A stretch of DNA of 64,000 nucleotides from Candidatus Omnitrophota bacterium (GCA_903908245.1 CAIVRE010000020.1:2758-66757); one strand, 5' to 3'; numbered from the stretch's first letter, positions 1-28,555 are shown. Notes: generated by a model not told the origin, from the sequence alone. Numbers and translations: made by a program.

Positions 1-228
1 GATGCTGCGCATATCGTCAATAAAACCAATGTATGCCGCGTCCAACTTGACAGGAACAATACTTTTAAACCCCGACAGGCGCCGCTCTTGATCATTAACA
101 CAACGGATCCTCCCCTCCAATTCTGATATTTTCCAGGATAACGACCGCCATTGACTCAATCCCCAAAACCCTTGGAAAAAAGCCCCAAACACGACACACA
201 CCCAAAGAATGCCCCACATCTTTTTCAT
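1..228 (-). CDS. Partial membrane-anchored protein, possible GspM/PilO-like partner. Its 3' end lies outside the window.
   Basis: Minus-strand ATG at 228..226 overlaps the TGA of the upstream gene, giving an ATGA overlap. Translation begins MKKMWGILWVCVVFGAFF, a transmembrane helix, followed by a coiled-coil-like SWKISELEGRIR. It sits in the same coupled operon as the secretin and the GspL-like gene. Confidence 0.4.
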   Translation of the reverse strand, partial: MKKMWGILWVCVVFGAFFQGFWGLSQWRSLSWKISELEGRIRCVNDQERRLSGFKSIVPVKLDAAYIGFIDDMRSI

Positions 229-1424
229 ATATTCTCTCCAAAGCCCTTCAAACCCCTATCAAGACGGCTTTTCTGATAGATAACCCTTAAAGCAGGCTGA
301 CCACCTGCAAGCTCATCAACAACTACCGCTTTCGTATAAATCCCCCGGGCATCAAAGAAACCTTCCTCACCTTTAAGAATAAAAACCGAAACCTTCTCGC
401 CGCCCTCTAACCCCGACTCCCAGATAATATTCTGCAATAACCAACCATTCGGCAAAGAATCCAAAAGACTCAAAAAAGACCCCTGCCAGCTGATCACCTT
501 CAACGAACGAAGATACTCCTGATACGTCAAAAGAGAACGCTCTTTCAAAATGGCTTCCCGAGAAACCACCATACTTTCCATACCTTTCATCCGGCTCAAA
601 GCATCCTCACGCAACGTTAACATGATCACCGAAAACAATACCGCCCCGGCTGTTACCAATAACGGCAGCGAGTATTTCAATGCACCCCGACGCCATTCTT
701 CCTGCTTTTGCTTACGCGCCTCTTCTTCAGGCGATGGAAAATGGACGGAAAAACGAGCTCTTTCCAGCACTTCAAAAACTGAAAGCACCGAGTCAACCGC
801 AACAATATCCTCGTGCCCCCGCTGTTTAATAAACGCCTCAAGGAACGCCCCATGATCAGACACCACCTTGACCGCCCCGCACGACCGCAAGCGCTCCAAC
901 AACCGCTTCTCACTGCGCCTCACTTCCTCGGCGATCCGCTCTCCATCCTGAAAAACAAGCTCGCGCGTTTCCACGATCGATAACCCGTCGATAACTGTAA
1001 CGAACACCCGCGCTCCAACATCATTCACCACAATATGTGCTGCGCCTTCCAGGACAAAGCCCGTAGAAAGCAGATACGCCCGGACCGCCAACCCGTATGG
1101 CACGCAAACCTTGATCGAACCCTTGGGAACAATATCGTAAAACCCGCGCAACATTTCTTCCCGCGCGCCCATCACCAGTCCCACTCCGCCTTTCAATCTT
1201 TCCTGACGCATAATGAACCCGCCAGGGAGCTCTGCACTAATCCCTTTATCCGCTGCTGCCGAAAACTTCACTTGCCGATATTCAATCCCTCCCAATAAAA
1301 CGGCCAACTCCTTCGTCGAGCTGAGATCTGATCCCGCAAACTCTTCCAATGACAGCCATTGCAACCCGCCCTCACCGACACAACAAATGCCTCTATCGGT
1401 TAAAATAATGACTTCCATTGTCAT
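225..1424 (-). CDS. GspL-like protein, a PilM-PilN-type fusion: a cytoplasmic actin-like domain, a single transmembrane helix and a periplasmic domain.
   Basis: 399 aa. The N-terminal ~245 aa are soluble, followed by a hydrophobic helix (LPLLVTAGAVLFSVIMLTL) and a ~130 aa C-terminal domain. The size and topology match GspL. A 4-nt start/stop overlap with the secretin gene indicates coupling. Confidence 0.5.
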   Translation of the reverse strand: MTMEVIILTDRGICCVGEGGLQWLSLEEFAGSDLSSTKELAVLLGGIEYRQVKFSAAADKGISAELPGGFIMRQERLKGGVGLVMGAREEMLRGFYDIVPKGSIKVCVPYGLAVRAYLLSTGFVLEGAAHIVVNDVGARVFVTVIDGLSIVETRELVFQDGERIAEEVRRSEKRLLERLRSCGAVKVVSDHGAFLEAFIKQRGHEDIVAVDSVLSVFEVLERARFSVHFPSPEEEARKQKQEEWRRGALKYSLPLLVTAGAVLFSVIMLTLREDALSRMKGMESMVVSREAILKERSLLTYQEYLRSLKVISWQGSFLSLLDSLPNGWLLQNIIWESGLEGGEKVSVFILKGEEGFFDARGIYTKAVVVDELAGGQPALRVIYQKSRLDRGLKGFGENI

Positions 1425-2806
1425 CCCCTCTTTGGTGTGATCAAAACTACCAGCTCAACCCTTGAATGTTTCTCCGACTCATAAGAAAATAACCTCCCCA
1501 GGAATGGAAGACGGCCAAGGACCGGGATACCAAAATGATCTTTACTGCGACTTTTTGTTATCAACCCGCCGATGACCGCAGTCTCATTCGCCTTTAACCT
1601 GACCATAGTATTCATGGACTTCATGGATGTTTCAGGCGCCTCAAGCCGGCTTCCTCCCCCAAGGGCGATCGAACGGATATCATCCACGCTGCTCACCACG
1701 GGCGTTACATTAAGGAATATTTCATCGCCGACCATATTGCCAACGATCTGCAACGTTACGCCGCCATGAACCTCCCCCAGAGAACCGCTGACGATCGTAC
1801 CCCCCGACTGGGTAGTTTCAATATTCGACGATTCAACATACGATCTTGTCGCTCCAACCTGGATATTGGCAACAGTATTATTCAGCATGGCGATCCGCGG
1901 TTGAGAAACGACCTCCACCTTTCCGTATGAATCCAGGGCACGAAGCAATACCTTGACCCCTGTCTCGGTATCCCCGGACCCCGCCTTATTAACCGAACCT
2001 GACAACGTAAATGTCCCTGCTGCGGGGAGATTCTCAGCGGCCATGGTGCTTACCCCTTTAAAGCCTTTAAGATCTCCCCGCTCCATCAATGCCGACCAGT
2101 CGATCCCCAGACGATTCTCATCCGAAAGCTCCACCTCGATCACCTTTACGTTCACCAGGATCTGCCGGCTGACACGTCGATTAAGTTCATCAATAAAACC
2201 CTCAACTGTTTCAAGGACAACCGGATTATCCGTTACCAGCATCACTCCGCCGACCCGATTTAACGACACACTGCCAGACGGAGAAAGCAAGGCTTTCACA
2301 TTACGTTCGGCATCCTCCCAATAGGAAAGTCGCTGGATGGTATTCTCAACCACCACCTTGGTCCCCACACGCACCTTGGAAGATCTCTTGTCCGATGTCC
2401 CGGAGCTATCGGTCAGGCTCTCATTGCTCGTCAAAGTATCAAGCTGCTGTTCCACTGGCGGCAAAGCCAACCGGAACACCTTGCTTTCAACCGCCAGGAT
2501 CACAAGGTCCTGTCCATTAACCTTAAAACCATACCCGTGTGAATAAAGGATCGTATTAAGGGCACGCAACACCGTTACATCCTTAAGATCAACATTAATA
2601 TCCGCTTCTTCAACGCCCTTGCCCAGAACAACCCCTTTTCCCGTCGCATCTGCTAGGCTCTTGATCGCTTCGGTTAATTTGAACGACCCGGTCATCGAGA
2701 CCTTGCGCATCAGCTCCGGCATAACAACCACCGTCTCCGCTGCCCATAATGCAGAAGCCCCCAGTAAAGACGATATCAACCATAAACATAGCCATTGTCT
2801 TTTCAT
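1421..2806 (-). CDS. Outer-membrane secretin of the GspD/PilQ family.
   Basis: 461 aa with an N-terminal signal peptide (MKRQWLCLWLISSLLGASALWA). The C-terminal secretin signature is GGLITKSRSKDHFGIPVLGRLPFLGRLF...VELVVLITPK. A 4-nt overlap with the flanking genes indicates coupling. Confidence 0.8.
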   Translation of the reverse strand: MKRQWLCLWLISSLLGASALWAAETVVVMPELMRKVSMTGSFKLTEAIKSLADATGKGVVLGKGVEEADINVDLKDVTVLRALNTILYSHGYGFKVNGQDLVILAVESKVFRLALPPVEQQLDTLTSNESLTDSSGTSDKRSSKVRVGTKVVVENTIQRLSYWEDAERNVKALLSPSGSVSLNRVGGVMLVTDNPVVLETVEGFIDELNRRVSRQILVNVKVIEVELSDENRLGIDWSALMERGDLKGFKGVSTMAAENLPAAGTFTLSGSVNKAGSGDTETGVKVLLRALDSYGKVEVVSQPRIAMLNNTVANIQVGATRSYVESSNIETTQSGGTIVSGSLGEVHGGVTLQIVGNMVGDEIFLNVTPVVSSVDDIRSIALGGGSRLEAPETSMKSMNTMVRLKANETAVIGGLITKSRSKDHFGIPVLGRLPFLGRLFSYESEKHSRVELVVLITPKRG

Positions 2807-3237
2807 TTGATCTGCCTTTCATTAGGAATAACCAAAGGTAACGCGGTAATATCGGCAGCCAAAACCTCAACATGCTCAGGATCCGGCCGAATATCAGAAC
2901 GCAAAGGAAACCCACCGGCTTTTATCCATTCACCGGGGGTAATAATAACAAGCTCATTATGTTCAGGATAAAAGGCTCCTCCCTGAACATGCGCCGGAAT
3001 ACGCACCTCCTGCACCAACGGTGCCGCCCAATTACTGCCACCTAAATAGGGGAAGCCGTTGCCGTTCATCCCATCCGCCATCCTGCCTAGATTCTCTTTG
3101 ATCCCCCGCTGGTAACCTTCGTCATATGCCACGCCGTAACGAGGCGTACCGGTCGATACGCAACCACTCAGAGCCCCGGCCATAACGACCAGGATCAATA
3201 ATATTCTAACGAACCCCATAAGGATGCTCCTTTGCAC
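2803..3237 (-). CDS. Small lipoprotein, possibly a pilotin or PilP-like secretin accessory.
   Basis: Lipobox ...VVMAGALSGC follows a hydrophobic leader. The protein is 144 aa. It overlaps the traC 3' end and the secretin 5' end. Confidence 0.5.
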   Translation of the reverse strand: MQRSILMGFVRILLILVVMAGALSGCVSTGTPRYGVAYDEGYQRGIKENLGRMADGMNGNGFPYLGGSNWAAPLVQEVRIPAHVQGGAFYPEHNELVIITPGEWIKAGGFPLRSDIRPDPEHVEVLAADITALPLVIPNERQIK

Positions 3238-5686
3238 ACTGTTTAAGCGCGGCTAACAGGTCTCCGCCCAAACGCTCACGAACAACATTAAGATATTCAT
3301 TGTTTCGCGGCTCAGTATTGGCCGCCCAGTACAAAAAAGGATCCGGTACAAGCCTTATTACACCGGACGATGACGGCGTTATCACCAATGCCTCGGAATA
3401 CTGCCCCTTGACCATATTCAAAGATCGCAAAAGGGCAGTACTCTCCTCACTAAGAGACAGCTCCCTCTTAAAACCTTCGATCAAACTGGGATCCTGTCTT
3501 AAAAATATTTTATTGGAGGTGTTTGCCAGAACAGCTCCCCCTGCTTTCTGCTGAAGAAGGTCGCCAGCCTCCTGCGTAACGGCCACCGCTGAACAACGAT
3601 ACTTCCGGAAGGTCTTGAATGCATTGGCTATAAAATCAGCTGTATTAGACATCTTGAGCAACTGCCATGCTTCATCGATAATGAGAAACTTGCGCTCCGC
3701 GACCACGGCACTCTCGGAGACAAAATTGGTAATAAAGAACATGATATTCAATAACACGACCAGCTGCAGATCAGGATAACGTGACAATTGCGCCAGCTCA
3801 AAGACCGTGAAACGCCCGCAAGACGACAGCTCATTGGGCCCATCGAAGAACTGTCCATACTGCCCATCTTTAGTGAAAGGCGTCAAGCAGAGCGCGAGCC
3901 GTTGCCCCATATCCGCAGGCAATCCCTTCGCTTCACTACAAAAAGGATCTTTAAGCACTTTAACAATATCGCTCAGAATAACCTCTCGGTCCGGGTTTTG
4001 TTCGTACGCCTTGAGAATACTGATCTGAAGCAACCCGCGTTCTTCACGCCCCAAGCGGTCGCGTTCATCGCCACCGGAAGCCATCATGGCAAGCATCTCG
4101 ACCAAGAAAGCTTGGGTTTCCGCTGTAGGTCTTCGATAGAACGGATTAATACACAACGGCTTATCCATCTCGAATGAAACGTACTGCCCGCTTAATACTT
4201 CACATGTCTTGCGATACGAATGCCCCTTGTCCAGTACAAAGAAATATGCGCCGAGACGATAATTCTGATAAATAAGATCGTTGGTCAAAAACGACTTCCC
4301 TGCTCCGGAAGCCCCAATGATCACTGCGTGCGGATTAGTATCAGAGTCGAAGAAATCAATACCTACAGTCTCTGCCCGGCGGTTAAGATACAAAGCCGCC
4401 GGCGTACGCGTACCCCGGAAAGCCCCATACCACGGCAGCAGATCACTAAAGTTATCCGCTAATAACCGACGTGTTCTGCGAACAAAATGATCATAGGCAT
4501 GATCAAAATTCAGCGGAAGGCAGCTCAAGAACAATGAAGGCGCAATAATCTCCTCTTTCAATCCCTCAGCTCCAAGACGGCTGAGGCTGGCTATGAATGC
4601 GTCCGCAGAACGATCCGCTTCATCGGCGGTCGCTGCAAACGGGATAAAATGAACCCGGCCATATACCACCGCCCTGCCGCCTTTAAATGATTCGCTGATC
4701 AAAGAACTAAGCTCTTCTTTCTTCTGGACCGCCTCTTCACTGATATCCCCCAATGAGGAAGTTCTTTGAATAAACGCAAACGCCTTCTGGAATTTAAGAC
4801 GCGCAAGCGCCTGCGATTGATCGGGAATAATAAAATTCATGACAACCAAGAATTCACGACAAACATCTAAAAGAGACGGCCCATTGCCTGAAGAACAGGT
4901 GACCATGCCTGCCCAAGTCCTCGATGGAAGCTCTTTAAGTGTAACCACACGGGTATGCCGGCCATCAAGGACAAACCCCCGTCCTTCAGCTAATGGCGCG
5001 TTATACAGGATCTGATCCCTGATAAAACGCCCCGCGGTTTTCTCTTTTTTCACCTGAAGTGAACGACGCGGATTAAGCACACGATACAAGAAATGGATCA
5101 CATCATCCGCATCCAACACTTTTAACAGCATCCCTGTTGCACGCAAGGCATTCTCGAAAGGGACAACAAGCTTCAAGAACGTTTCATGCTCTTTTTCAAA
5201 AATACCAGGGCCATAGTGACCCCCGACGACAAAATACACACGTGCGCGTCCAGGCCAGGATGGTGCTTGAAATTGAGGAAAATACCGGGCCGTGAGGAAC
5301 ACCCTTAATTCACGGGGAAAAACAGTCTTTTGCAAATGTTCAAGTTTCTCATCGATGGCTGCCCGCACGATCCCGGAGGCCTCTTTCACCCCGGCCATCC
5401 GATAATCGTCCAGGTTCGCACTGATATCCGTATCACTCCAAAGAATAACTTGAAGGCAAAGCCTGGATGAAAGGCGGCTCAGAATGCCCGCAACCTGGGA
5501 AGAAAAATCATCCAACATATCCATGGAAGCGGCCTCTGCCCCAAAGGGCTTGACTTCCCACACCCGGCCAAGGCTGCCATCGACATTCACAAAAACACCT
5601 CCCACCTCATCCGCATACGGTAAATGATCCAGCAGCGATGGCCCCTCATTAAATATCTTCTCAATATCCAAAGCCGTTAAAGCCAT
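3206..5686 (-). CDS. traC: TraC/VirB4-family conjugative type IV secretion ATPase.
   Basis: 826 aa. The Walker A region VIIGASGAGKSFLTNDLI...FVLDKGHSYRKTCEVLSGQYVSF...INPF aligns with F-plasmid TraC (SGAGKT...DMGDGYKSLCENMGGVY...FNPF). Confidence 0.8.
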   Translation of the reverse strand: MALTALDIEKIFNEGPSLLDHLPYADEVGGVFVNVDGSLGRVWEVKPFGAEAASMDMLDDFSSQVAGILSRLSSRLCLQVILWSDTDISANLDDYRMAGVKEASGIVRAAIDEKLEHLQKTVFPRELRVFLTARYFPQFQAPSWPGRARVYFVVGGHYGPGIFEKEHETFLKLVVPFENALRATGMLLKVLDADDVIHFLYRVLNPRRSLQVKKEKTAGRFIRDQILYNAPLAEGRGFVLDGRHTRVVTLKELPSRTWAGMVTCSSGNGPSLLDVCREFLVVMNFIIPDQSQALARLKFQKAFAFIQRTSSLGDISEEAVQKKEELSSLISESFKGGRAVVYGRVHFIPFAATADEADRSADAFIASLSRLGAEGLKEEIIAPSLFLSCLPLNFDHAYDHFVRRTRRLLADNFSDLLPWYGAFRGTRTPAALYLNRRAETVGIDFFDSDTNPHAVIIGASGAGKSFLTNDLIYQNYRLGAYFFVLDKGHSYRKTCEVLSGQYVSFEMDKPLCINPFYRRPTAETQAFLVEMLAMMASGGDERDRLGREERGLLQISILKAYEQNPDREVILSDIVKVLKDPFCSEAKGLPADMGQRLALCLTPFTKDGQYGQFFDGPNELSSCGRFTVFELAQLSRYPDLQLVVLLNIMFFITNFVSESAVVAERKFLIIDEAWQLLKMSNTADFIANAFKTFRKYRCSAVAVTQEAGDLLQQKAGGAVLANTSNKIFLRQDPSLIEGFKRELSLSEESTALLRSLNMVKGQYSEALVITPSSSGVIRLVPDPFLYWAANTEPRNNEYLNVVRERLGGDLLAALKQCAKEHPYGVR

Positions 5687-6042
5687 CAGCGCCCCTCTCC
5701 CTCGATGAACCAGCGCGTTCGTTCAAGCATCACGAACGACCAATGCCCGCCCACCATGATATTCTTGTCCTCTTTAACAATATGGGACGGCACCCAAACC
5801 TTGATAACTCTCGGGAGAAGGATCACCGGAAGATATGGCTTCACCACCCCGAGTGGCGCATCCAGCGAAAGAAGAGGTCTCCCTTCAGCGTCCGTCTTTT
5901 CCGCCTGCTTGGCCTGACGATAAGTCTCCGCGAACGTACGGGCCTTCTTTTCATCAGAAGCCCTCTGTCCCGACGATGAAACAGAAGCGCAGCCGCTAAT
6001 CCAAATAACGAACATTATCAGGCTTATTGCTCTTAAGGCCAT
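5686..6042 (-). CDS. traV: TraV-like outer-membrane lipoprotein of the type IV secretion core.
   Basis: 118 aa. The signal peptide carries a lipobox (IWISGCAS). It sits between the TraB-like and TraC genes, as in F-type operons. Confidence 0.5.
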   Translation of the reverse strand: MALRAISLIMFVIWISGCASVSSSGQRASDEKKARTFAETYRQAKQAEKTDAEGRPLLSLDAPLGVVKPYLPVILLPRVIKVWVPSHIVKEDKNIMVGGHWSFVMLERTRWFIEGEGR

Positions 6043-7132
6043 TGATCCGCACTCCTTCCAGAATGATCAAATATACATCCACCCCCGACTCAACCCGAAC
6101 CGCAGGAATGATGGAACTCAGTTGATCCGCATAATATTTTGATAATTGCGCCGCACTTTGAGAGAGTCCCTGAAATGCGGCATACCTGCCAACACTGCCT
6201 GTCACATTACGTGACACCCGCCCGCTCGATGACCTTACAGCCGTTGTCTCTCCATCCGCAATGGCCCCGGAAGCACCTCCCAAAAAACCGGTCATGAACG
6301 ACGATGCCATCTGCGCCCCCGTATTGCGCACAACGACCCCCCGGATCCCAAGCTCTCCGTTAATATCCGTAACATACCCGATATTACCCTGCTGTTGGAA
6401 CTCCCGGCCATCCGGCAATATCGCAGACAATGTCACTGCCTGGATGAGCGCCCGCTCACTATTAAGCTCGCCAACAGCTTTCCCGATCACAAACGCGCCC
6501 TCGAGAGGAATTCGGGCCTCATTCGGACCATAAAACGCCTCATTCAAACGAATAAGCACCGGCAACGGATTATTCTGGTCCGAAGGAGCATAAACCCCGG
6601 TCAAAAGCGTTCCGCGAACAAAACTTCCCGACGGCAAGAATACGCCCTCTTTCTCCGGTTCCGATACAGGATTAATATTAACGACTTCCAACCGATAACT
6701 TTCAACACGCCCCCCTGCCGGAGAAAGGGAAGGTTTCTCCGCAAATTTTGTTTCCAACCTCATGACGCTATCATTGATCCCTCCCTGGATCTTCAATACT
6801 TCAGCGATCTTTTTATCCAACACTTCAATCTGAACTTCCATCTGATGGCTTCTTTCCTGCGCGCCATGATATTGTTCTTCCAGTCGCCCGACAAAAGCCT
6901 TGCGGTCCACATCCTCGTCAAGAAATAACCCCGACCGTTCCATATTCGACGCCTTTGGCTTATCGATTTCCAATTCACGTTGCCTTGGACTCTCGGAGAT
7001 CTTTTCAACCTTCCTTGGCGCATGATTTGATGAAAAAACAAATAACAGGACAAAAAAAAGAGCACCCCCCACCCACAACCACATACGGCGGTCATTCATC
7101 AATAACTTGAGCCTCTCGAGTATTTCATTCAT
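5996..7132 (-). CDS. traB: TraB/VirB10-like core protein of the type IV secretion system.
   Basis: 378 aa. It has an N-terminal transmembrane segment, a charged linker and a C-terminal TrbI/VirB10-like beta domain. The operon position matches F traB. Confidence 0.6.
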   Translation of the reverse strand: MNEILERLKLLMNDRRMWLWVGGALFFVLLFVFSSNHAPRKVEKISESPRQRELEIDKPKASNMERSGLFLDEDVDRKAFVGRLEEQYHGAQERSHQMEVQIEVLDKKIAEVLKIQGGINDSVMRLETKFAEKPSLSPAGGRVESYRLEVVNINPVSEPEKEGVFLPSGSFVRGTLLTGVYAPSDQNNPLPVLIRLNEAFYGPNEARIPLEGAFVIGKAVGELNSERALIQAVTLSAILPDGREFQQQGNIGYVTDINGELGIRGVVVRNTGAQMASSFMTGFLGGASGAIADGETTAVRSSSGRVSRNVTGSVGRYAAFQGLSQSAAQLSKYYADQLSSIIPAVRVESGVDVYLIILEGVRINGLKSNKPDNVRYLD

Positions 7133-7842
7133 CGCGATGCCACCATATATAAAATGCCCTTCGATCCTGAAGTCCCTGCAGCGGTCAAAATATCTTTCTG
7201 CGACGTCACCGCCAATAAACCCGGAAAATTAAACTGTTCCACCGGTATCACCAGGGACTGCGGCAATAAATTCTCCGCCGTTAGAACATAACCGACGATT
7301 TCCGGCATTTCATACATGAACATTGTCCTGATCCGCACCCGGGCATCTTCAAAGATCACTGTTTCACGCAAGGTTTCCACCGCGCCGGATGGCGCACGCC
7401 CCGCCGCCAGTTCCCGAATAAGGTCAATGCTTGAAAGCGTGCTTGTCTCGGTAATACCTGCCTCCTTCTGGGGCTCAATGACCACTTTCTCATCAAATCC
7501 TTTATCAAAAACAAATTTAAGCCGGTACGAACGCCCGATACCGTCGATAACCACCAGCTCGGCAGGATCCCGCAACAACGGCGTAATGAATAAATGCCCC
7601 GCCACGTGTTCCACTTTTAGACTTGCCGCATCACCCGAACGGACAATATTGGAAACCCCGCCTCCAACGACGACCTCAATGGCCTTTCCCATCTCGGACC
7701 GGACTTCCACCGCCCCCTCCTGCAACACATGTTTCACCTCCTGGGCCTCGGCACACACCACTGCGCCAAAAACAAGGACAAGGACCAACGTGCATCTATT
7801 TTGTCTCAACGGACACCTCTTCTTTCCTGATATCCAACACAC
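7129..7842 (-). CDS. traK: TraK-like (VirB9/secretin-N-like) core protein of the type IV secretion system.
   Basis: 237 aa with a signal peptide. The C-terminal block AENLLPQSLVIPVEQFNFPGLLAV resembles F TraK [24 protein letters not shown]. Confidence 0.55.
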   Translation of the reverse strand: MCWISGKKRCPLRQNRCTLVLVLVFGAVVCAEAQEVKHVLQEGAVEVRSEMGKAIEVVVGGGVSNIVRSGDAASLKVEHVAGHLFITPLLRDPAELVVIDGIGRSYRLKFVFDKGFDEKVVIEPQKEAGITETSTLSSIDLIRELAAGRAPSGAVETLRETVIFEDARVRIRTMFMYEMPEIVGYVLTAENLLPQSLVIPVEQFNFPGLLAVTSQKDILTAAGTSGSKGILYMVASR

Positions 7843-8434
7843 TTAAAGCATATGGATTATCCCCGGTTGATGCCGACCTCAATAACACGACCACAAAACA
7901 TACAGGTTCAACCGACATTTCTTCTTTCCCCATATAGATCCCGCGTTTCCCCTCCATCGCAACCTTAAAAACACCTTTGTCTTCTTCAACCCGCGGCTCA
8001 GCTGTCAACATAAACACACTGGATAATCGATCCCGGCGGATCTTCTCAATCTCATCAGCAGCCCGCGCATGCACCCGGGATAGCAAGCCCGGAGCCATGG
8101 ACTTTGACGAACGCGTATAAACACCCTCGATCGTGTCCGGCGTATAATTCATCCATCCCGTCAACCACATAACAGCAAAACTGCGTACCGAAACCAACGG
8201 GACATTATCCGGATAAGACATGCCGGAAGACACCGCACCGGGAATGTAATACACCGCCTTTGGACGAGTCACAGAATAGGCGAATGCTATCAGCACAACA
8301 ACCAATAGCCCCGACAATAAATATACGCCCCTGCGCATCTGAATGTTTTCATTCTCCGCACGCGCATAACGTTCAAAAAAAATAGTGCTTTTGGACCTCA
8401 GCGGCTTATCCGCATTAACACGTTCATCACCCAT
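7796..8434 (-). CDS. traE: TraE-like (VirB8-like) bitopic inner-membrane protein.
   Basis: 212 aa with a single N-terminal transmembrane helix. It lies between the TraL-like and TraK-like genes, as in F. Confidence 0.5.
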   Translation of the reverse strand: MGDERVNADKPLRSKSTIFFERYARAENENIQMRRGVYLLSGLLVVVLIAFAYSVTRPKAVYYIPGAVSSGMSYPDNVPLVSVRSFAVMWLTGWMNYTPDTIEGVYTRSSKSMAPGLLSRVHARAADEIEKIRRDRLSSVFMLTAEPRVEEDKGVFKVAMEGKRGIYMGKEEMSVEPVCFVVVLLRSASTGDNPYALSVLDIRKEEVSVETK

Positions 8435-8781
8435 TAATAAACCTCTTCCCTGCCATATACCGCATACCGGCCTTCTCCCGGAGGAAGAAGCCCATCGAAT
8501 GGAATGCCCGAACGATATAAAAGATGGACCATAAACCCTTCCGGCCTCCCGCGCTTAAGCGCGGCTAACAAAGGCCAACTAATAAAAAACAAAATAAGCG
8601 GAACCGTTGGCGTTAATATGACGGCAGGAATACCAAAAAGCAGCATAAGCACCGCCACATCCTCCCCCTCAAGCCCAAGAATTAATAATGGCCGATCGAT
8701 CGTCCGCGGGCAATTACGCATAATTAAAATATGTTCAAAAAATTGGGTAAAAATACCAGCGCCAGCAATGCCAGAACACAC
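8434..8781 (-). CDS. traL: TraL-like (VirB3-like) protein. The likely start is the internal Met near 8721.
   Basis: ALKRGRPEGFMVHLLY matches F TraL KLKKGRGSSWLRDLIY. It has two hydrophobic segments and lies directly downstream of the pilin. Confidence 0.6.
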   Translation of the reverse strand: MCSGIAGAGIFTQFFEHILIMRNCPRTIDRPLLILGLEGEDVAVLMLLFGIPAVILTPTVPLILFFISWPLLAALKRGRPEGFMVHLLYRSGIPFDGLLPPGEGRYAVYGREEVY

Positions 8782-9014
8782 CCCACGGCAGCCCCATAAT
8801 CCTTATGGACGATCTTCCAGATCGCTACGATCAGAAAGATCAAGGCCAAAACCTTGGATGCTGGCCCGGTCATCACCTTTACCATAAAACCAGCCAGATT
8901 ATTGAACTCTTCACTGGCCTTGTCCTCTGCTCCAGACGTTTGAGCCCACACCGCTGAGTACGACGATAAACCCGCCCATAAGAAACACAACAGCCATAAT
9001 TTGATCTTTTTCAT
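8724..9014 (-). CDS. TraA/VirB2-type conjugative (pro)pilin.
   Basis: The start MKKIKLW at 9014 overlaps the TGA of the upstream gene (ATGA). There is a ~24 aa signal peptide, followed by a ~70 aa mature protein with two hydrophobic helices. It is the first type IV secretion gene before the TraL-like gene. Confidence 0.55.
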   Translation of the reverse strand: MKKIKLWLLCFLWAGLSSYSAVWAQTSGAEDKASEEFNNLAGFMVKVMTGPASKVLALIFLIVAIWKIVHKDYGAAVGCVLALLALVFLPNFLNIF

Positions 9015-10237
9015 ACAGCTCCCTTTCTTTTGAACATCATCAGAGGCAACAACAATACAGCCATCGCCAACAATCCCACAACACCTACCAGAGGCATATC
9101 CCACAAAAAGACTTTTCCCCCGTATAAAATATTATTAACATCAAACACCAGCGAGGAGACACGATCGATGATCGCCCAAAACAACGGGATCAATTTCAAA
9201 ACAAAAAGATATTTCAAGAAAACCCACAACAAAGAAATATCAGAACTAAAGAACACAAATACCAGAAAAAATGGGAATGCCGCCCATACACTCCAAAGGC
9301 ACGCTCCATACAGGACCGGAAAGACCGACAGCCAGACACGGCTCATCTGGTCCACCATAGCGCCCGCTCTGACATTTAAAGTCATGCTGCGGGCCTGAGC
9401 GGTCTCCTTCTGCCCCGAAAAACTCATGGCCGTATATGCCCATGAAGCATGGGCGGCATCCGCCTCTATTAACGCACGCACTGCCGCGTCTTTTAAGGAA
9501 CTGCCGTCATAATAATCGCGTGAAACCCTTTCAAATAACTCATCCTTGTTGATGAACGTATAAATAGCATCTTCCAACACCCTCCAATCGGATGCAGCCT
9601 GAGACGTATATAACGGAAGAATTTCCTCAGAACCTGGCCATAATGACTGTCCAACCAAAGGATCTTTTTCATTGAGCGTACGCAAGGCCTGAAAATAATG
9701 ATCCTGATAGAAATTAACCAGTTTCTCTTTTAACAACTGATCATTAAGACCCGCCATCAATCGATCCCGTGTCAACAACCAAAACTTAGACGTAGAAAAA
9801 GGCTCTTTCAGGAAACTTGCATTATGACCACGCGCCCGATCAACCACCGAGATCATGCCATTAGTGAAAGCGGACATTCCTTCTGCGAGAAACACTACTA
9901 CGGGACTTGCCAAAAGTTGATCGATCCCGGCCTTCCTTAATATGTCATCAGTCCTGATTTGAACGTACCCGCCCCCTTCCATACCAGAAAGCGGCAGTCT
10001 TAGGGGCGTCCTCGGCATGATCAGCAGAAACAAAAAGGAAAAGAATATCGAACAAAAGAATATGACTGAGGAAAAATTTGCATTCTTCAAAGAACGCGAC
10101 ATAGAAAAAAGAAAACCGGAAACAAAAATAACCTTTCCTGCCAATGTCTCAATAAAAATATACCTCATCAAGGCTGAAGATTGATGAAGCCCAATCAATT
10201 CGAATGCGTTGTCAATTGGTGTTATTCCACAAGTCAT
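9011..10237 (-). CDS. Polytopic membrane protein, first gene of the operon. A VirB6/TraG-N-like role is possible.
   Basis: 408 aa. Transmembrane helices sit at both ends and flank a ~250 aa soluble domain. It is translationally coupled to the pilin gene. Confidence 0.4.
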   Translation of the reverse strand: MTCGITPIDNAFELIGLHQSSALMRYIFIETLAGKVIFVSGFLFSMSRSLKNANFSSVIFFCSIFFSFLFLLIMPRTPLRLPLSGMEGGGYVQIRTDDILRKAGIDQLLASPVVVFLAEGMSAFTNGMISVVDRARGHNASFLKEPFSTSKFWLLTRDRLMAGLNDQLLKEKLVNFYQDHYFQALRTLNEKDPLVGQSLWPGSEEILPLYTSQAASDWRVLEDAIYTFINKDELFERVSRDYYDGSSLKDAAVRALIEADAAHASWAYTAMSFSGQKETAQARSMTLNVRAGAMVDQMSRVWLSVFPVLYGACLWSVWAAFPFFLVFVFFSSDISLLWVFLKYLFVLKLIPLFWAIIDRVSSLVFDVNNILYGGKVFLWDMPLVGVVGLLAMAVLLLPLMMFKRKGAV

Positions 10238-10349
10238 GATTTCCTATCAAATCTTAATTGATTAAACATCAATAGATATACGACAAGAAGCCAAAAAATA
10301 CAAGAACTATTTTTATCTTTCATCAAATTATTTGATTTATTAACAACTA
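10238..10349 (-). promoter_or_regulatory. AT-rich upstream region, the probable promoter of the type IV secretion/secretin operon.
   Basis: This is the only sizeable non-coding gap, about 110 nt and AT-rich, before the 10-kb run of overlapping minus-strand genes. Confidence 0.35.
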
Positions 10350-11645
10350 CTACGAAGTATGCGACGAGGATCGAAGAATTTGCTCACGCAACAAAACGAA
10401 CTCACCGGGGTCTTGAGGAAAAGGAATATAACAAAAATGCAGTCCGCCATGGATCGCGCTCACCGAATGGCCTTTATCATCAAATAACTCTTTTACTTCA
10501 AGCGCAACATTCCTGTCGGGAAGGCAGAGCTCATACGCCTGCCCGCATTTGATCGGATTGCGCGGCTCGACCTTGAGCATTTTCTTGATCTGGTCATACC
10601 CCCTCACAATACCGGTAAAACGATACCCGCTGTACGCTGAATTGCTGTTGGAATACTCAACAGCGCCGGGGCCAGGATCACCGTGCAGGAACCCTTCGGT
10701 AAACCCACGCGCAGAGGTCGCAAAAATATCGCTCATATGCTCTTCATTGAACGGCTGGCCCTTAACAAGATCATCGATCGCCCGGCGATACGCCCGTGTG
10801 ACCATGGCTATATAATAAACCGTCTTGGAACGCCCTTCCACCTTGAACGCACCAATCCCCGCCGCCTGAAGCTCCCCCAGGCACCTGATCGCGCACAGGT
10901 CTTTGGCATTCATCAGGTACGCTCCATGCTCATCCTCCTCGATGGGAAAAAGCATCCCCTTGCGCTCCGACTCCTCCAGGTAAAACTCATCCTTGAGCGG
11001 CACATAATCGTCGCCATGCTTTGTCTTGGCCACCTTATACTGCCAGCGGCAGGAATTGGTGCAAACACCCTGGTTGGAATCGCGATGGGTCAAATAATTG
11101 GAAATAAGGCAGCGCCCGGAATAGGCGATACACACCGCGCCGTGCACGAACGACTCAAGCTCAAGCCCGGGGCAGGCATCGCGAATGACTTTCATTTCAG
11201 CTATCGATATTTCACGGGAAAGGATGATCCGGCTCGCGCCAATGTTCTGCCAGAATTTAGCCGACGCATAGTTGATCACATTAGACTGGACCGAAATATG
11301 AATTGCTTCCGACGGGAAATGCTCACGCATCAGCATGATGAGCCCCGGGTCCGCCATGATCCAGGCATCGGGCTTGCAGGCCGAACAGATATCTTTCACC
11401 AAACGGATAAAACCAGGGACCTTGCTGTTATGGGAAAGAATATTGGCCGTAACATAAACCTTCCGGCCCAGGCGATGCGCGTAAGCCACCGCTTCCGCGA
11501 CTTGCGCAACGTCCTTAAACCCGTTCTCCCTCGCGCGCAGTGAAAAACGCGGGATCCCCAGATACACCGCATCCGCGCCGAACGCGAAAGCATAGCGCAT
11601 CTTTTCCATGTCACCGGCGGGGATCAAAAGCTCGGGGATGCGCAC
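10350..11645 (-). CDS. Peptidase of the U32 family (collagenase-like).
   Basis: 431 aa. It carries U32 motifs: E...GADAVY, and a cysteine-rich CxxxC..C region (GVCTNSCRW). Confidence 0.75.
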   Translation of the reverse strand: MRIPELLIPAGDMEKMRYAFAFGADAVYLGIPRFSLRARENGFKDVAQVAEAVAYAHRLGRKVYVTANILSHNSKVPGFIRLVKDICSACKPDAWIMADPGLIMLMREHFPSEAIHISVQSNVINYASAKFWQNIGASRIILSREISIAEMKVIRDACPGLELESFVHGAVCIAYSGRCLISNYLTHRDSNQGVCTNSCRWQYKVAKTKHGDDYVPLKDEFYLEESERKGMLFPIEEDEHGAYLMNAKDLCAIRCLGELQAAGIGAFKVEGRSKTVYYIAMVTRAYRRAIDDLVKGQPFNEEHMSDIFATSARGFTEGFLHGDPGPGAVEYSNSNSAYSGYRFTGIVRGYDQIKKMLKVEPRNPIKCGQAYELCLPDRNVALEVKELFDDKGHSVSAIHGGLHFCYIPFPQDPGEFVLLREQILRSSSHTS

Positions 11646-11648
11646 AGA

Positions 11649-13592
11649 TCAATCGCCCTTGAACTGCTTGAGAGCCTCCGCCTGAAACCCGGGAGGCATA
11701 TGGTCGAAACGGGTAAAAACACTCATGCTGCTTTTCATGGTCCTGATAAAAGGCGTTCCGTTAACAACGCGAATGCCTTCTTCTTTCTTGGTATCATAAA
11801 CCAGCATACACGGGTCAAATGCCCCTCGGGGAAGCGGCGCGCTGGCTGATGGATTGTCCACCTTGACATGCTCTATCCGTAAATTCCTGACCCCTGCTTC
11901 TTTTATAAAGACCCACATCGGATATTCCCAGGAATCCCCCGTCAAGACCAGTCCGATATCCTTGCACTGGTATTGCGTCACTTGCTGGCTCAAAGCCACG
12001 TATACCGGATACACCGCCGACCAATGGTTGAAATACTGCTGTTCCCTTGAAACATTGAAAATATTCTTCTGTGCGATCAAAGGCCGCACGGAATTGCCGA
12101 ATACCCATGGCAATGCCGCAACCAGTAAAAAGCCCGATACAACGACCGCCGCCTTGCGGCTGACGGCATTCTCAAGGACCAGCGCCGCCCATGGAGCCAG
12201 CAACACAAAGACCGGTAAATGATAACGGCAACTGAATGGAGACCACTGGACCATCACAACAAACAAAACAAATCCCGCTATAACCGCCAATGCATATTCT
12301 TTGGCAACGGACGGAACCTTGCGCGCATACCGCCAGGCCAAAACCCCGGCGATCAAATACAACAGCAAGTGGGCTGCGTTACCCGCCACATCCTCATTAA
12401 GAGGAGAATGCAGGTCAAACGGGGCCGCCTCCCCCATCAAGGCCCGCGCATCATTGCTCTGGCCGATACCCCCAAGGATCCCGTTCACGCCTGATGAAAC
12501 AAACCTGTTCGCGCCATCCCATGGCGTCGAAAGCTGCATACCCGCGCTCCGCACCATATTCCCCAGTGTTCGTCCACCCAGGTCGCTCCAGGAAAGGACA
12601 TGGGCTGATTCAGACGGAGGAATGATCGTCCGGGTCAACGACAGATTACGGGTGTAATAAAACACATTCAACCCCAGCGCCAACAAAAGAATACCTGCCG
12701 CCAACAAGATACCCTTTAGAGCTCCATTTTTCCTGGCGATCATCACAGCAAACCATCCCAACAGCACCAGGCCGTAAAAATATGGGGTCCCCTTTACAAA
12801 GAACGCCAGTCCAAGAGCCACACTAGCGGAAAACAAGAAAAACCGACGGCCCGTGCGGACAAAGAGCAATCCGGAAACAACGAACGCAATAAGTCCCAGC
12901 GCTGCCAGATAATCATTCTGCGTGCTGTTAGACTGAAGGATCCCCATCGGGATCGCTGCCGCTATGGCCACAGACATCACCTGCCCCAACCGCCCTGCTC
13001 CCAAAAGCTGGGCGATCAAAGAAACCCCTGCCAGGCTCAACACCATCGCGCCCCATTGCACCACAGGCGCCCAGCGGTCCCCCCCGGACAGGATCTGAAA
13101 ATGCAGGATACAATAAGACCCGAACGCAGGCAAATTCAACTGTTTGATCATGGATGTCGGATAGTTTGCCACCGTTCCGTCCTGGATCCAATGCATGACC
13201 CTCGCCATATGCGTCGTCATCGAATCCCATGTGTTGGGAGGCGCGACCACAGCAATTAAAAAACTTGCCGCAACGATCCCTGCTGCCCCCCATAACAACC
13301 CCGTTTCAAAACGGTCAAAAGAAACCGCCCCAAAAGACCGGACATCTTTCTTACTGCCACGATACCTGATCCACGATCCCAATCCGGCGCACACCGATAA
13401 CCACCAAACAAACACCGGCCAGAAACTCAACCCCTGGAACATACTTAACAATTCTGTCGCGCATAACAATAAGCCGCCCCACAGGACAGCGCCCAAGAGG
13501 ACAGCCGTACGGCGCATACCGGCCTCCGCCGGCAAAAACTGCCAGCAAAAGAACATGCAGAGGAGCAATGCAACAATAAGGATCCCTGTCAT
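11649..13592 (-). CDS. Membrane glycosyltransferase with a GT-C fold, ArnT/PMT (GT39)-like.
   Basis: 647 aa. About 12 transmembrane helices are followed by a C-terminal soluble domain, the typical architecture of PMT_2 family proteins. Confidence 0.45.
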   Translation of the reverse strand: MTGILIVALLLCMFFCWQFLPAEAGMRRTAVLLGAVLWGGLLLCATELLSMFQGLSFWPVFVWWLSVCAGLGSWIRYRGSKKDVRSFGAVSFDRFETGLLWGAAGIVAASFLIAVVAPPNTWDSMTTHMARVMHWIQDGTVANYPTSMIKQLNLPAFGSYCILHFQILSGGDRWAPVVQWGAMVLSLAGVSLIAQLLGAGRLGQVMSVAIAAAIPMGILQSNSTQNDYLAALGLIAFVVSGLLFVRTGRRFFLFSASVALGLAFFVKGTPYFYGLVLLGWFAVMIARKNGALKGILLAAGILLLALGLNVFYYTRNLSLTRTIIPPSESAHVLSWSDLGGRTLGNMVRSAGMQLSTPWDGANRFVSSGVNGILGGIGQSNDARALMGEAAPFDLHSPLNEDVAGNAAHLLLYLIAGVLAWRYARKVPSVAKEYALAVIAGFVLFVVMVQWSPFSCRYHLPVFVLLAPWAALVLENAVSRKAAVVVSGFLLVAALPWVFGNSVRPLIAQKNIFNVSREQQYFNHWSAVYPVYVALSQQVTQYQCKDIGLVLTGDSWEYPMWVFIKEAGVRNLRIEHVKVDNPSASAPLPRGAFDPCMLVYDTKKEEGIRVVNGTPFIRTMKSSMSVFTRFDHMPPGFQAEALKQFKGD

Positions 13593-13621
13593 AACCTCAA
13601 TCTTTCCTGTTGTAAGTCATC

Positions 13622-14694: not shown

Positions 14695-14700
14695 GGATTA

Positions 14701-14734
14701 AAACAAAAGCCCCGCTGTCAAAACACGGGGCTTT
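14701..14734 (-). terminator. Rho-independent terminator downstream of fba.
   Basis: GCCCCG(ctgtcaaaaca)CGGGGC hairpin flanked by A- and T-runs. Confidence 0.6.
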
Positions 14735-14753
14735 TGATCATTTCAACCACATC

Positions 14754-28551: not shown

Positions 28552-28555
28552 TGAA

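What the first reader, a model, noticed from the sequence alone, without database searches (positions are those of the whole stretch)
2803..10237. The type IV secretion locus sits in the chromosome among core genes and lacks a relaxase or coupling protein in view
No relaxase, VirD4/TraD coupling protein, oriT-like repeats or integrase flank the F-like operon inside this window. The operon is bounded upstream by the U32 peptidase, the GT-C glycosyltransferase, fba and pilD.

This suggests a domesticated F-like apparatus repurposed for chromosomal use, for example as a pilus, for protein secretion or for DNA uptake. It does not look like a classical conjugative element.

The rest of the system, to the left of position 1, is not visible here.
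Basis: inference. Interest (0 to 1): 0.55.

Follow-up and report, generated by a model that had tools for sequence, protein, structure and literature searches.

The report
Reduced chromosomal F-type secretion system with secretin
An ultra-small Omnitrophota bacterium keeps, under purifying selection, a cut-down chromosomal conjugation-type machine with no DNA-processing genes nearby, joined to a pilus-type outer-membrane secretin through a duplicated TraV lipoprotein, a combination not described in the papers searched here.

Summary
The F-like operon is real but runs further left than reported. It is one tightly packed operon of 12 genes on the minus strand (window 10237 to beyond 1): a weak TraG_N/VirB6-like candidate, TraA-like pilin, TraL, TraE, TraK, TraB, TraV, TraC, a second TraV-like lipoprotein (TraV2), a PilN/MshL-type secretin, a PilM-PilN/GspL-like protein, and a possible PilO-like protein. 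An identical contig shows the 8.6 kb left of the window: no traW/U/N/F/H/D/I, relaxase, coupling protein or integrase.

The organism is an Omnitrophota bacterium. The module keeps its gene order in about 35 loci, mostly Omnitrophota. Most relatives carry a larger version: a type IVb pilus module (ATPase, platform, prepilins) nested between traC and traU/traF. The Velamenicoccus clade also has a coupling protein and a Replic_Relax-like gene.

The window lineage is a monophyletic reduced form. All retained genes are intact and under purifying selection in five species, at a fixed site beside ilvC-leuA-aroE-pilD-fba. In six species TraV2 is fused to the secretin.

Verdict: a vertically inherited, reduced T4SS derivative, not an ordinary ICE. 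Its function is inferred only. It is a new variant of a known kind.

The parts
10238..10349 (-). AT-rich intergenic region between the U32 peptidase gene and the first gene of the operon; the likely promoter region.
   Evidence: Read from the sequence. It is the only sizeable gap: every junction inside the operon overlaps or has a gap of at most 2 nt. The promoter scan gives nothing above chance, so promoter function is inferred.
9011..10237 (-). 408-aa all-helical polytopic membrane protein; a weak candidate for a TraG N-terminal domain / VirB6-like channel subunit.
   Evidence: No Pfam or NCBIfam hit. The family HMM hits F-type TraG residues 309-383 at a collinear position (15 bits, shared LLWxxxW motif). 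hhalign gives only 20% probability. The AF2 model has pLDDT 89 but no significant PDB match; VirB6/TrwI chains appear only among the non-significant hits. It is the first gene of the module in 29 loci. The family is rare: 64 representatives among 1.84 billion proteins.
8724..9014 (-). 96-aa TraA/VirB2-like conjugative pilin.
   Evidence: It has a signal peptide and two hydrophobic helices. Weak hits to TrbC/VirB2 (E 0.01) and TraA_gammapb (E 0.017). hhalign against plasmid TraA gives 74%, E 2.8e-5. It sits before traL, as in F.
8434..8721 (-). TraL (VirB3-like), 95 aa.
   Evidence: PF07178, E 2.8e-7. hhalign 96.7%.
7796..8434 (-). TraE (VirB8-like), 212 aa.
   Evidence: PF05309, E 2.4e-8. hhalign 94%.
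7129..7809 (-). TraK (VirB9-like) outer-membrane core subunit, 226 aa, with a signal peptide.
   Evidence: No Pfam hit. The family HMM hits plasmid TraK at E 1.5e-6. hhalign 90%.
5996..7132 (-). TraB (VirB10-like), 378 aa.
   Evidence: PF03743 TrbI, E 3.9e-21. hhalign 99.9%.
5686..6042 (-). TraV (VirB7-like) lipoprotein, 118 aa, lipobox ISGC.
   Evidence: Sequence read. HMM against plasmid TraV gives E 1.8e-6. hhalign 93.7%.
3206..5686 (-). TraC (VirB4-family ATPase), 826 aa.
   Evidence: PF11130 TraC_F_IV (E 4.5e-26) and PF19044 (E 1.4e-43). TIGR02746 TraC-F-type E 2.7e-115, below the equivalog cut-off. It is 27% identical over 96% of its length to TraC of MOBH/MPF_F plasmids.
2803..3219 (-). 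TraV2: a 138-aa lipoprotein (lipobox LSGC) that is a paralogue of TraV.
   Evidence: Using clean, position-defined sets, hhalign of TraV2 against TraV gives 96.8%, E 2.5e-10, and the TraV2 HMM hits 39 of 46 TraV sequences. In 6 of 44 species its conserved C-terminal motif is fused to the N-terminus of the secretin. The gene is still present in L016, which has no secretin.
1421..2806 (-). Secretin of the type IV pilus kind (PilN type IVb / MshL-like), 461 aa, with a signal peptide.
   Evidence: PF00263, E 8.3e-33. NCBIfam MshL 1.3e-61 and PilN-IVB 1.4e-48, both below cut-off. The best plasmid matches are PilN-family secretins at about 28% identity. hhalign against Polaromonas PilN gives 99.9%. 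It is 71-80% identical across the reduced clade, as conserved as TraC.
225..1418 (-). 397-aa bitopic protein: a cytoplasmic actin-like domain, one transmembrane helix and a periplasmic alpha/beta domain. This is the architecture of a PilM-PilN fusion or of GspL.
   Evidence: No sequence-level hit. The AF2 model (pLDDT 73.6, 7-sequence alignment) matches PilM (5eou, E 1.3e-8), cyto-EpsL (1w97), PulL and FtsA in Foldseek. It follows the secretin in 37 loci.
1..228 (-). The first 76 codons of a 156-aa gene that runs off the window: a transmembrane helix followed by a predicted coiled coil. A PilO/GspM-like role is suggested by position and topology only.
   Evidence: The full sequence comes from L001 12579-13049. 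The gene is conserved after the 397-aa gene in 32 loci. No profile match to HofO or GspM.

Best explanation
Shown:
- The locus is a secondarily reduced, vertically inherited form of a gene supercluster found across Omnitrophota.
- The fuller form has three parts. The first is an F-type T4SS closest to the MOBH/MPF_F type of SXT and IncA/C elements. The second is a conjugative-plasmid-type type IVb ('thin') pilus module nested between traC and traU. The third, in one clade, is a coupling protein plus a Replic_Relax-family gene.
- The window lineage has lost the coupling protein, the relaxase-like gene, the pilus ATPase, platform and prepilins, a PilP-like gene, TraU and TraF.
- It has kept the parts that would span the cell envelope: a weak TraG_N-like candidate, the TraA-like pilin, TraL, TraE, TraK, TraB, TraV, TraC, TraV2, the PilN-type secretin, a PilM-PilN/GspL-like protein, a possible PilO-like protein and a 412-aa secreted protein.

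Inferred mechanism:
- The TraC ATPase, with TraL, TraE and the TraG_N-like protein, forms the inner-membrane assembly. It extracts and polymerises the TraA-like pilin or moves a substrate.
- TraB, TraK and TraV form the outer-membrane core.
- The secretin is tethered to that core by the TraV-like domain of TraV2. In the F plasmid, the C-terminal domain of TraV binds TraK.
- Without a coupling protein the machine cannot recruit a relaxase-DNA substrate in the canonical way. It would work independently of a coupling protein: as a surface filament or contact device towards host or prey cells, as a periplasm-to-outside exporter, or as a DNA-uptake route, as in other T4SSs that lack one.
For: - **One operon.** Twelve genes are packed with overlaps or gaps of at most 2 nt. 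Identical proteins occur in three independent assemblies.
- **F-type identity of eight genes** (one of them, the 408-aa TraG_N-like gene, on weak evidence only).
- **Type IVb origin of the secretin:**
- **PilM/GspL-like fold of the 397-aa protein:**
- **Left flank without tra, coupling-protein, relaxase or integrase genes:**. The rest of the window is housekeeping.
- **Gene order conserved** in about 35 sufficiently long loci, mostly Omnitrophota, including the complete Velamenicoccus archaeovorus chromosome.
- **The larger ancestral form:** T2SSE ATPase, T2SSF platform, N-methyl/PilS prepilins, TraU, TraF, coupling protein and Replic_Relax. None of these families hits the window.
- **Reduction is derived.** The reduced architecture is one clade nested among full-architecture clades on the TraC tree.
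- **Purifying selection.** Across five species of the reduced clade, synonymous sites are saturated (pS about 0.7). pN is 0.07-0.26 for the pilin, TraL, TraE, TraK, TraB, TraC, TraV2 and the secretin, and rises to 0.49 for the least conserved gene (the 156-aa gene). All 13 genes are intact.
- **Fixed chromosomal position** next to ilvC-leuA-aroE-pilD-fba in L006, L008 and L042.
- **TraV2 is a TraV paralogue** and is fused to the secretin in six species. TraV C-terminal domains bind TraK in the F outer ring (PMC8770708).
- **Repeated retention.** L010, L012 and L015 also keep the secretin, the 397-aa gene and the 156-aa gene while showing no pilus motor or pilin genes in the roughly 6 kb downstream.
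Against: - No experiment or expression data exist for this lineage, so function is inferred.
- Only about 73 kb of the genome was seen. A coupling protein, relaxase, TraU/TraF or pilus ATPase, platform and pilins could be encoded elsewhere and act in trans.
- pilD lies 5.5 kb away, and Omnitrophota are reported to have other type IV pili (PMC10066038).
- An F-type outer-membrane core (TraB/K/V) normally needs no secretin. The retained secretin could belong functionally to a pilus system rather than to the T4SS.
- In F, pilus assembly also needs TraW, TraU, TrbC, TraF and TraH, which are absent here (established knowledge of the F system).
- The TraG_N/VirB6 assignment is weak.
- The PilO-like assignment of the 156-aa gene rests on position and topology only.
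- The model of the 397-aa protein comes from a 7-sequence alignment (pLDDT 73.6).
- The TraC tree is a simple neighbour-joining tree without support values.
Confidence: 0.6

Rival explanations
1. Two machines lie side by side. The T4SS genes form one apparatus. The secretin, the PilM-PilN-like protein and the PilO-like protein are the leftover outer part of a type IVb pilus. They now serve a pilus whose ATPase, platform and pilins are encoded elsewhere in the genome.
For: - The secretin module clearly comes from a type IVb pilus. In most relatives it is followed directly by the pilus ATPase, platform and prepilins.
- pilD lies 5.5 kb upstream.
- Omnitrophota are reported to have type IVa and Tad pili (PMC10066038).
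- A T4SS with a pilus module attached is a known plasmid layout, for example Polaromonas JS666 plasmid 2.
Against: - The lipoprotein that precedes, or is fused to, the secretin is a TraV paralogue. That ties the secretin to the T4SS outer ring.
- The pilus module is nested inside the tra cluster (traC ... traU-traF), not merely adjacent to it.
- The same three genes were kept while the motor and pilin genes went missing from the locus in two clades.
- pilD belongs to the conserved housekeeping neighbourhood, not to the operon.
Confidence: 0.2
2. The locus is a decaying remnant of an integrated conjugative element. It is no longer functional and is being lost piecemeal.
For: - Many genes needed in F are missing: coupling protein, relaxase, TraU, TraF, TraW, TraN, TraH.
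- A toxin-antitoxin pair has been inserted into the cluster.
- Other lineages show different partial losses.
Against: - All 13 retained genes are intact in five species whose synonymous sites are saturated, while amino-acid identity stays at 60-85% for most components.
- Gene overlaps are preserved.
- The locus is at the same position in at least four species.
Confidence: 0.07
3. It is an ordinary ICE or mobilisable island. Its relaxase, coupling protein and integrase simply lie outside the sequence examined.
For: - Homologous loci in the Velamenicoccus clade carry a coupling protein and a Replic_Relax-like gene.
- Nitrospirota contigs with the same layout carry a MOBH relaxase, Rep3 and a ParB-like gene.
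- The window contains a serine recombinase.
Against: - The 8.6 kb to the left and 54 kb to the right hold housekeeping genes and no such functions.
- The recombinase is 39 kb away, beyond rpsB-tsf-pyrH-frr, the suf genes and the isp genes.
- There are no flanking direct repeats.
- The flanks are syntenic in several species that share 74-80% TraC identity.
- In relatives that have them, the coupling protein and relaxase-like gene sit inside the module, between the first gene and the pilin. That position is empty here (a 4-nt overlap between the two genes).
Confidence: 0.06

Closest known systems
F-type (MPF_F) conjugative T4SS of the MOBH group: SXT/R391, IncA/C, pAQU2 and the Methylomonas, Halomonas and Vibrio plasmids L062-L064
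   Same: - TraC is 26-27% identical over 96% of its length.
- The traL-traE-traK-traB-traV order is the same, and TraA-type pilin, TraK, TraV, TraB and TraL/E are all recognisable by profile.
- In fuller Omnitrophota loci TraU, TraF and a TraD-like coupling protein are also present.
   Different: - The window has no relaxase, TraD, TraW/TrbC, TraU, TraN, TraF or TraH, and no C-terminal part of TraG.
- It has a second TraV paralogue, a true secretin and a PilM/GspL-like protein.
- It is chromosomal, fixed in position and vertically inherited.
Type IVb 'thin' pilus modules attached to conjugative T4SSs: IncI1 R64 pilI-V and the PAPI-1-type ICEs (from prior knowledge), and Polaromonas JS666 plasmid 2 (seen here, L065)
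   Same: - The secretin is of the PilN family.
- In fuller Omnitrophota loci the order matches PilN-PilO-PilP-PilQ-PilR-PilS: secretin, large bitopic protein, PilP-like protein, ATPase, platform, PilS-type prepilins.
- The module sits next to T4SS genes on a transfer system.
   Different: - Here it is nested in an F-type cluster, not an I-, G- or T-type one.
- The secretin is preceded by, or fused to, a TraV-like lipoprotein domain.
- The window lineage kept only the secretin and two inner-membrane proteins, with no ATPase, platform or pilins.
T4SSs that work without a coupling protein: Helicobacter pylori ComB (DNA uptake), Bordetella Ptl (toxin export) and the archaeal Ced DNA importer (from prior knowledge; CedB and CedD appear as weak NCBIfam hits)
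   Same: A VirB4-type ATPase with envelope components and no VirD4-type coupling protein or relaxase at the locus. They are chromosomal and not self-transmissible.
   Different: - ComB and Ptl are VirB/P-type and Ced is archaeal, not F-type; none is known to include a secretin or PilM-like protein.
- No functional evidence links this locus to DNA uptake or toxin export.
Chromosomal F-like tra islands of environmental Chlamydiae, also in the PVC group (from prior knowledge, not tested here)
   Same: F-like tra genes on the chromosome of a host-dependent member of the PVC superphylum.
   Different: As recalled, those islands keep traU, traN, traF, traH, traG and traD-like genes and have no secretin or pilus module. 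They are variable islands rather than a conserved module.

Membership tests
F-type (MPF_F) type IV secretion system | A VirB4-family ATPase of the TraC F-type. | tested here: met
   PF11130 TraC_F_IV scores 92 bits against a cut-off of 28. TIGR02746 is the best NCBIfam hit (E 2.7e-115, 386 bits), but this is below the equivalog cut-off of 567. It is therefore a divergent member.
F-type (MPF_F) type IV secretion system | The core set TraL, TraE, TraK, TraB and TraV in the F gene order, with a TraA-type pilin. | tested here: met
   Pfam finds TraL, TraE and TraB. hhalign probabilities: TraL 96.7%, TraE 94%, TraK 90%, TraB 99.9%, TraV 93.7%, TraA 74%.
F-type (MPF_F) type IV secretion system | The F-specific assembly and mating-pair proteins TraW, TraU, TrbC, TraN, TraF and TraH. 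| tested here: not met
   None is in the window or the 8.6 kb to its left. TraU and TraF are present in related Omnitrophota loci. The 412-aa downstream protein does not match TraH.
F-type (MPF_F) type IV secretion system | TraG with a VirB6-like N-terminal domain. | tested here: inconclusive
   The 408-aa family gives a 15-bit collinear HMM hit to TraG residues 309-383. hhalign gives 20%. Foldseek finds no significant match.
Self-transmissible conjugative element (ICE or plasmid) | A relaxase. | tested here: not met
   No relaxase family was found in any ORF of the window or in L001. The Replic_Relax-like family of relatives does not hit the window.
Self-transmissible conjugative element (ICE or plasmid) | A type IV coupling protein (VirD4/TraD/TraG). 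| tested here: not met
   No hit to PF02534, PF10412 or PF12696 was found. The HMM of the Omnitrophota coupling protein finds nothing in the window or in the reduced-clade loci.
Self-transmissible conjugative element (ICE or plasmid) | An integrase with att repeats bounding the element, and variable presence among relatives. | tested here: not met
   The only recombinase is 39 kb away. No flanking repeats were found. The flanks are syntenic in L006, L008 and L042.
Type IVb pilus (PilN/R64-type) | A PilN-family secretin. | tested here: met
   TIGR02520 gives E 1.4e-48 over nearly the full length, below the equivalog cut-off. hhalign against PilN gives 99.9%. The best plasmid matches are PilN-family secretins.
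Type IVb pilus (PilN/R64-type) | An assembly ATPase, a platform protein and prepilins. | tested here: not met
   All are absent from the window and from L001. All are present in more than 17 related loci.
Type IVb pilus (PilN/R64-type) | An inner-membrane alignment protein with a PilM/GspL/BfpC-like cytoplasmic domain. | tested here: met
   Foldseek on the AF2 model matches PilM at E 1.3e-8 and cyto-EpsL with a TM-score of 0.59 normalised to the target. This is fold-level evidence only; there is no sequence match to PilO2, HofM or GspL.

The most novel reading that the evidence does not exclude
In Omnitrophota the T4SS and the pilus-type secretin form one hybrid nanomachine. A TraV-like lipoprotein domain docks the secretin onto the TraK/TraB/TraV ring.

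In the reduced lineage of this window, the conjugative-type TraA filament or its substrate would leave the cell through the secretin, with no coupling protein and no pilus motor. That would be a secretin-dependent class of T4SS, used by ultra-small, host-dependent bacteria to contact or breach other cells.
Probability: 0.25. Interest if true: 0.82.

Novelty: new variant of a known kind. Interest (0 to 1): 0.62.

Why it matters
Omnitrophota are widespread, uncultured, ultra-small bacteria thought to live as predators or parasites of other microbes. How they attack or exchange material with their partners is unknown.

The Omnitrophota papers searched here discuss type IVa and Tad pili, T2SS-like loci and giant proteins, but not this module.

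Three points could matter if confirmed:
- A conjugation-type machine is conserved in gene order across many Omnitrophota species and sits at a fixed chromosomal site in the window's clade. It is a concrete candidate for cell-to-cell contact or transfer.
- The fusion of a TraV-like domain to a secretin suggests a physical coupling between two secretion superfamilies usually treated as separate. That coupling can be tested by structure prediction or cryo-ET.
- The natural series of reduced variants shows which parts can be lost, which helps define a minimal working core of an F-type system.

Tried and rejected
1. **Exact look-up of the 399-aa ORF.** It failed because the real start gives 397 aa. 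The secretin and TraC look-ups worked instead.
2. **Sequence searches for the 397-aa and 408-aa proteins.** Profile searches against PDB for both, a Pfam member scan for the 397-aa family and single-sequence Pfam/NCBIfam scans gave nothing. Two word-indexed homologue searches for the 397-aa protein returned only seven sequences.
3. **Structure prediction with locus-derived alignments.** A shallow alignment was used for the 397-aa protein and a deeper one, from the representative search, for the 408-aa protein.
4. **Foldseek on the 408-aa model.** No significant match, so the VirB6/TraG_N idea stays tentative.
5. **The 412-aa protein as TraH, and the 156-aa protein as PilO/GspM/HofO.** Neither has profile support.
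6. **My first view.** I took the secretin to be simply a part of the T4SS. I revised this after finding the pilus ATPase, platform and prepilins downstream in relatives.
7. **A contaminated alignment.** My first TraV2 alignment included a 589-aa ORF and falsely matched all secretins. I rebuilt it from position-defined sets. The TraV relationship held and the fusion was confirmed in six species only.
8. **Promoter, terminator and repeat scans.** Nothing above chance.
9. **Literature searches.** No description of this module in Omnitrophota or of a T4SS joined to a secretin was found.

Full report
**What is in the window.**
All real genes in the first 31 kb are on the minus strand. From 10237 leftwards there is one run of genes whose junctions overlap by 1-47 nt or are separated by at most 2 nt. 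The gene coordinates below come from an identical contig.

| Window coordinates | Product |
|---|---|
| 9011-10237 | 408-aa membrane protein |
| 8724-9014 | 96-aa pilin-like protein |
| 8434-8721 | TraL |
| 7796-8434 | TraE |
| 7129-7809 | 226 aa, TraK-like |
| 5996-7132 | TraB |
| 5686-6042 | 118-aa lipoprotein, TraV-like |
| 3206-5686 | TraC |
| 2803-3219 | 138-aa lipoprotein |
| 1421-2806 | secretin |
| 225-1418 | 397-aa protein |
| 1-228 | start of a 156-aa gene that runs off the window |

Pfam recognises TraL, TraE, TrbI/TraB, TraC and, unexpectedly, a full secretin domain (PF00263, E 8e-33).

**What lies left of position 1.**
The secretin and TraC proteins occur with identical sequence on metagenome contigs from three assemblies. 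Locus L001, from a 98-kb ENA scaffold, overlaps the window and extends 8.6 kb beyond its left end. It shows:
- the rest of the 156-aa gene;
- a small antitoxin and a PemK toxin;
- a 412-aa secreted protein;
- then radical-SAM/SPASM, purU, a GAF-HD-GYP gene and PFOR.

None of traW, traU, trbC, traN, traF, traH, traG-C, traD or traI is there.

To the right of the operon come U32 peptidase, two unknown genes, fba, pilD, aroE, leuA, ilvC and pfk. Housekeeping genes continue to 49 kb.

The only mobile-element genes in the window are a large serine recombinase (49583-51256) and an NrS-1-like primase-polymerase (52049-54478). They lie 39 kb from the operon. No relaxase or coupling-protein family was found anywhere. 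No flanking direct repeats stand out.

**Organism and spread.**
TraC homologues at 42-80% identity come almost entirely from Candidatus Omnitrophota MAGs. They include the complete genome of Ca. Velamenicoccus archaeovorus.

A scan of one genome per species returned 56 loci. Nearly all are Omnitrophota. Some are labelled 'uncultured Planctomycetales', and one, labelled 'Micrarchaeia', is probably mis-binned. Two are Nitrospirota MAGs.

I built HMMs from the window proteins and iterated them on the ORFs of these loci. In essentially every locus long enough (about 35), the twelve families occur in the same order. The flanking genes are shared only with the closest relatives.

**Identity of the parts.**
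I compared the family profiles with annotated MOBH/MPF_F plasmids (Methylomonas, Halomonas, Vibrio pAQU2). Each family picks its expected partner:

| Family | hhalign probability |
|---|---|
| TraL | 96.7% |
| TraE | 94% |
| TraK | 90% |
| TraB | 99.9% |
| TraV | 93.7% |
| TraA | 74% |

- **TraC.** Its best NCBIfam model is TraC-F-type.
- **The 408-aa protein.** It gives only a weak, collinear match to the N-terminal domain of TraG (hhalign 20%). A confident AF2 model (pLDDT 89) has no significant PDB neighbour. The VirB6-like role is therefore tentative.
- **The secretin.** It is of the type IV pilus kind. MshL and PilN-IVB are the best NCBIfam models. PilN-family secretins of conjugative plasmids are the best plasmid matches. 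hhalign against Polaromonas PilN gives 99.9%.
- **The 397-aa protein.** It has no sequence-level relatives outside this system. Its AF2 model (pLDDT 73.6) has an N-terminal actin-like domain, a long transmembrane helix and a periplasmic alpha/beta domain. The N-terminal domain matches PilM, cyto-EpsL/GspL, PulL and FtsA. This is the architecture of GspL or of a PilM-PilN fusion.

**The larger ancestral cluster.**
I clustered the flanking ORFs of all loci and ran Pfam on the V. archaeovorus locus. In more than 20 loci the 156-aa gene is followed on the same strand by, in order:
- a PilP-like gene (hhalign 83% to PilP);
- a T2SSE ATPase (E 2.6e-107);
- a T2SSF platform protein;
- two or three prepilins with N-methyl and PilS-type domains;
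- TraU (E 1.2e-32);
- TraF;
- the 412-aa protein.

A type IVb pilus module is thus nested inside an F-type tra cluster.

In the Velamenicoccus clade and in L016, two further genes lie between the first gene and the pilin. One is a 779-aa coupling protein (TraG-D_C, TrwB_AAD_bind and T4SS-DNA_transf domains; hhalign 96.6% to TraD). The other is a 254-aa protein whose only Pfam family is Replic_Relax. It is matched by 4 of 9 members, best E 3e-6, at or just below the cut-off for the V. archaeovorus member (24.2 vs 25.3 bits).

The two Nitrospirota loci share the tra, TraV2 and secretin layout, followed by a pilus-type ATPase. One of them (L061, whose module also includes a platform protein and prepilins) also carries a MOBH relaxase, Rep3 and a ParB-like gene, so there the system sits on a plasmid-like element.

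HMMs for all these extra families find nothing in the window or in its closest relatives.

**The window lineage is a reduced form under selection.**
- On a neighbour-joining TraC tree, the five species with the reduced architecture (the window organism, L006, L007, L008, L042) form one clade. It is nested among clades with the full pilus module plus TraU and TraF.
- Within this clade synonymous sites are saturated (pS about 0.7). Non-synonymous differences are 0.07-0.26 for the best-conserved genes (pilin, TraL, TraE, TraK, TraB, TraC, TraV2, secretin) and reach 0.49 for the 156-aa gene.
- All 13 genes are intact. The secretin is as conserved as TraC (71-80% identity).
- The module sits beside ilvC-leuA-aroE-pilD-fba in L006 and L008, and beside U32 in L006 and L042.

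This argues against both a decaying remnant and a recently acquired island.

**The link between the two halves.**
The 138-aa lipoprotein between traC and the secretin is a paralogue of TraV. With clean, position-defined, non-overlapping sets, hhalign gives 96.8% (E 2.5e-10). The TraV2 HMM hits 39 of 46 TraV sequences. An earlier alignment of mine was contaminated and was discarded.

In six species (L009-L012, L015, L047) there is no separate gene. Instead, the conserved C-terminal motif of TraV2 forms the N-terminus of the secretin, behind a signal peptide that carries a lipobox in at least L010.

In the F plasmid outer-membrane complex, TraV C-terminal domains pair with TraK in the outer ring (PMC8770708). 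The inference is that TraV2 tethers the secretin to the T4SS core. Two further observations fit this:
- L016 keeps TraV2 but has no secretin or pilus module, so TraV2 belongs to the tra side.
- L010, L012 and L015 keep the secretin and its two partners but show no pilus motor or pilins in the roughly 6 kb downstream.

**Interpretation and its limits.**
The best reading is a vertically inherited, reduced derivative of a conjugation-type machine. It retains the candidate envelope-spanning scaffold and has no coupling protein at the locus.

What it moves or displays is unknown. Candidate roles are a TraA-type filament or contact device, export from the periplasm, or DNA uptake. These are suggested by analogy with coupling-protein-less T4SSs (prior knowledge) and by the epibiotic, predatory lifestyle described for V. 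archaeovorus (PMC10066038; PMC13153191).

The main rival is that the secretin set serves a pilus encoded elsewhere. Only about 73 kb of this genome was visible, so components acting in trans cannot be excluded.

**Novelty.**
Type IVb pili attached to conjugative T4SSs are known. R64 and PAPI-1 are examples from prior knowledge, and Polaromonas plasmid 2 was seen here. F-type systems are textbook.

None of the following was found in the literature searched:
- chromosomal conservation of this module, in one gene order, across many Omnitrophota species;
- the TraV paralogue and its fusion to the secretin;
- the stable reduced form that lacks DNA-processing and pilus-motor genes.

I rate it a new variant of a known kind.

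Noticed in passing
window 49583-54478 (low GC continues to about 58000): A large serine recombinase (Resolvase + Recombinase + Zn_ribbon_recom) lies next to an 809-aa NrS-1-like primase-polymerase. GC then drops to 0.445. This looks like a small integrated element unrelated to the tra operon.
   Followed up: partly
L001 13101-13674 (just left of the window): An 81-aa antitoxin and a PemK toxin are inserted between the 156-aa gene and the 412-aa gene in the window organism only. In L006 and L008 the two genes are adjacent.
   Followed up: partly
window 1-64000: Nearly all genes are on the minus strand. GC skew is negative throughout (-0.04 to -0.33), which suggests one replichore with strong co-orientation of genes.
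   Followed up: no
L061 1-6400 and 12489-21900; L055: Two Nitrospirota MAG contigs carry the same tra, TraV2 and secretin layout followed by a pilus-type ATPase (L061 also has a platform protein and prepilins). L061 also has a MOBH (TraI_2) relaxase, Rep3 and a ParB-like gene; L055 has an SLT transglycosylase. There the system appears to sit on a plasmid-like element.
   Followed up: partly
L016 (JAJDCA010000046.1) 1912-17038: This Omnitrophota locus has the coupling protein, the Replic_Relax-like gene, TraV2, TraU, a thioredoxin-like gene, TraF and the 412-aa gene. It has no secretin or pilus module at all. It may show either the state before the module was inserted or a clean loss.
   Followed up: partly
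L022 6115-6789 (V. archaeovorus chromosome): A NYN-domain (RNase-like) gene is inserted between traL and traE in V. archaeovorus.
   Followed up: no
L047 (JAVZXS010000008.1): A contig labelled 'Candidatus Micrarchaeia archaeon' carries the bacterial module with a TraV2-secretin fusion. This is probably a binning error.
   Followed up: no
It is absent from the syntenic position in L006, L008 and L042.
   Followed up: partly
L001 13708-14946 and homologues in 12 loci: A 412-aa secreted protein with no detectable family always closes the cluster. It follows TraU-TraF in the full loci and the 156-aa gene in the reduced ones. It does not match TraH, and its role is unknown.
   Followed up: partly
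window 28301-28724: A cluster of tRNA-Gly(GCC), tRNA-Leu(TAG) and tRNA-Lys(TTT) genes lies 18 kb from the operon. No element is inserted next to it.
   Followed up: no
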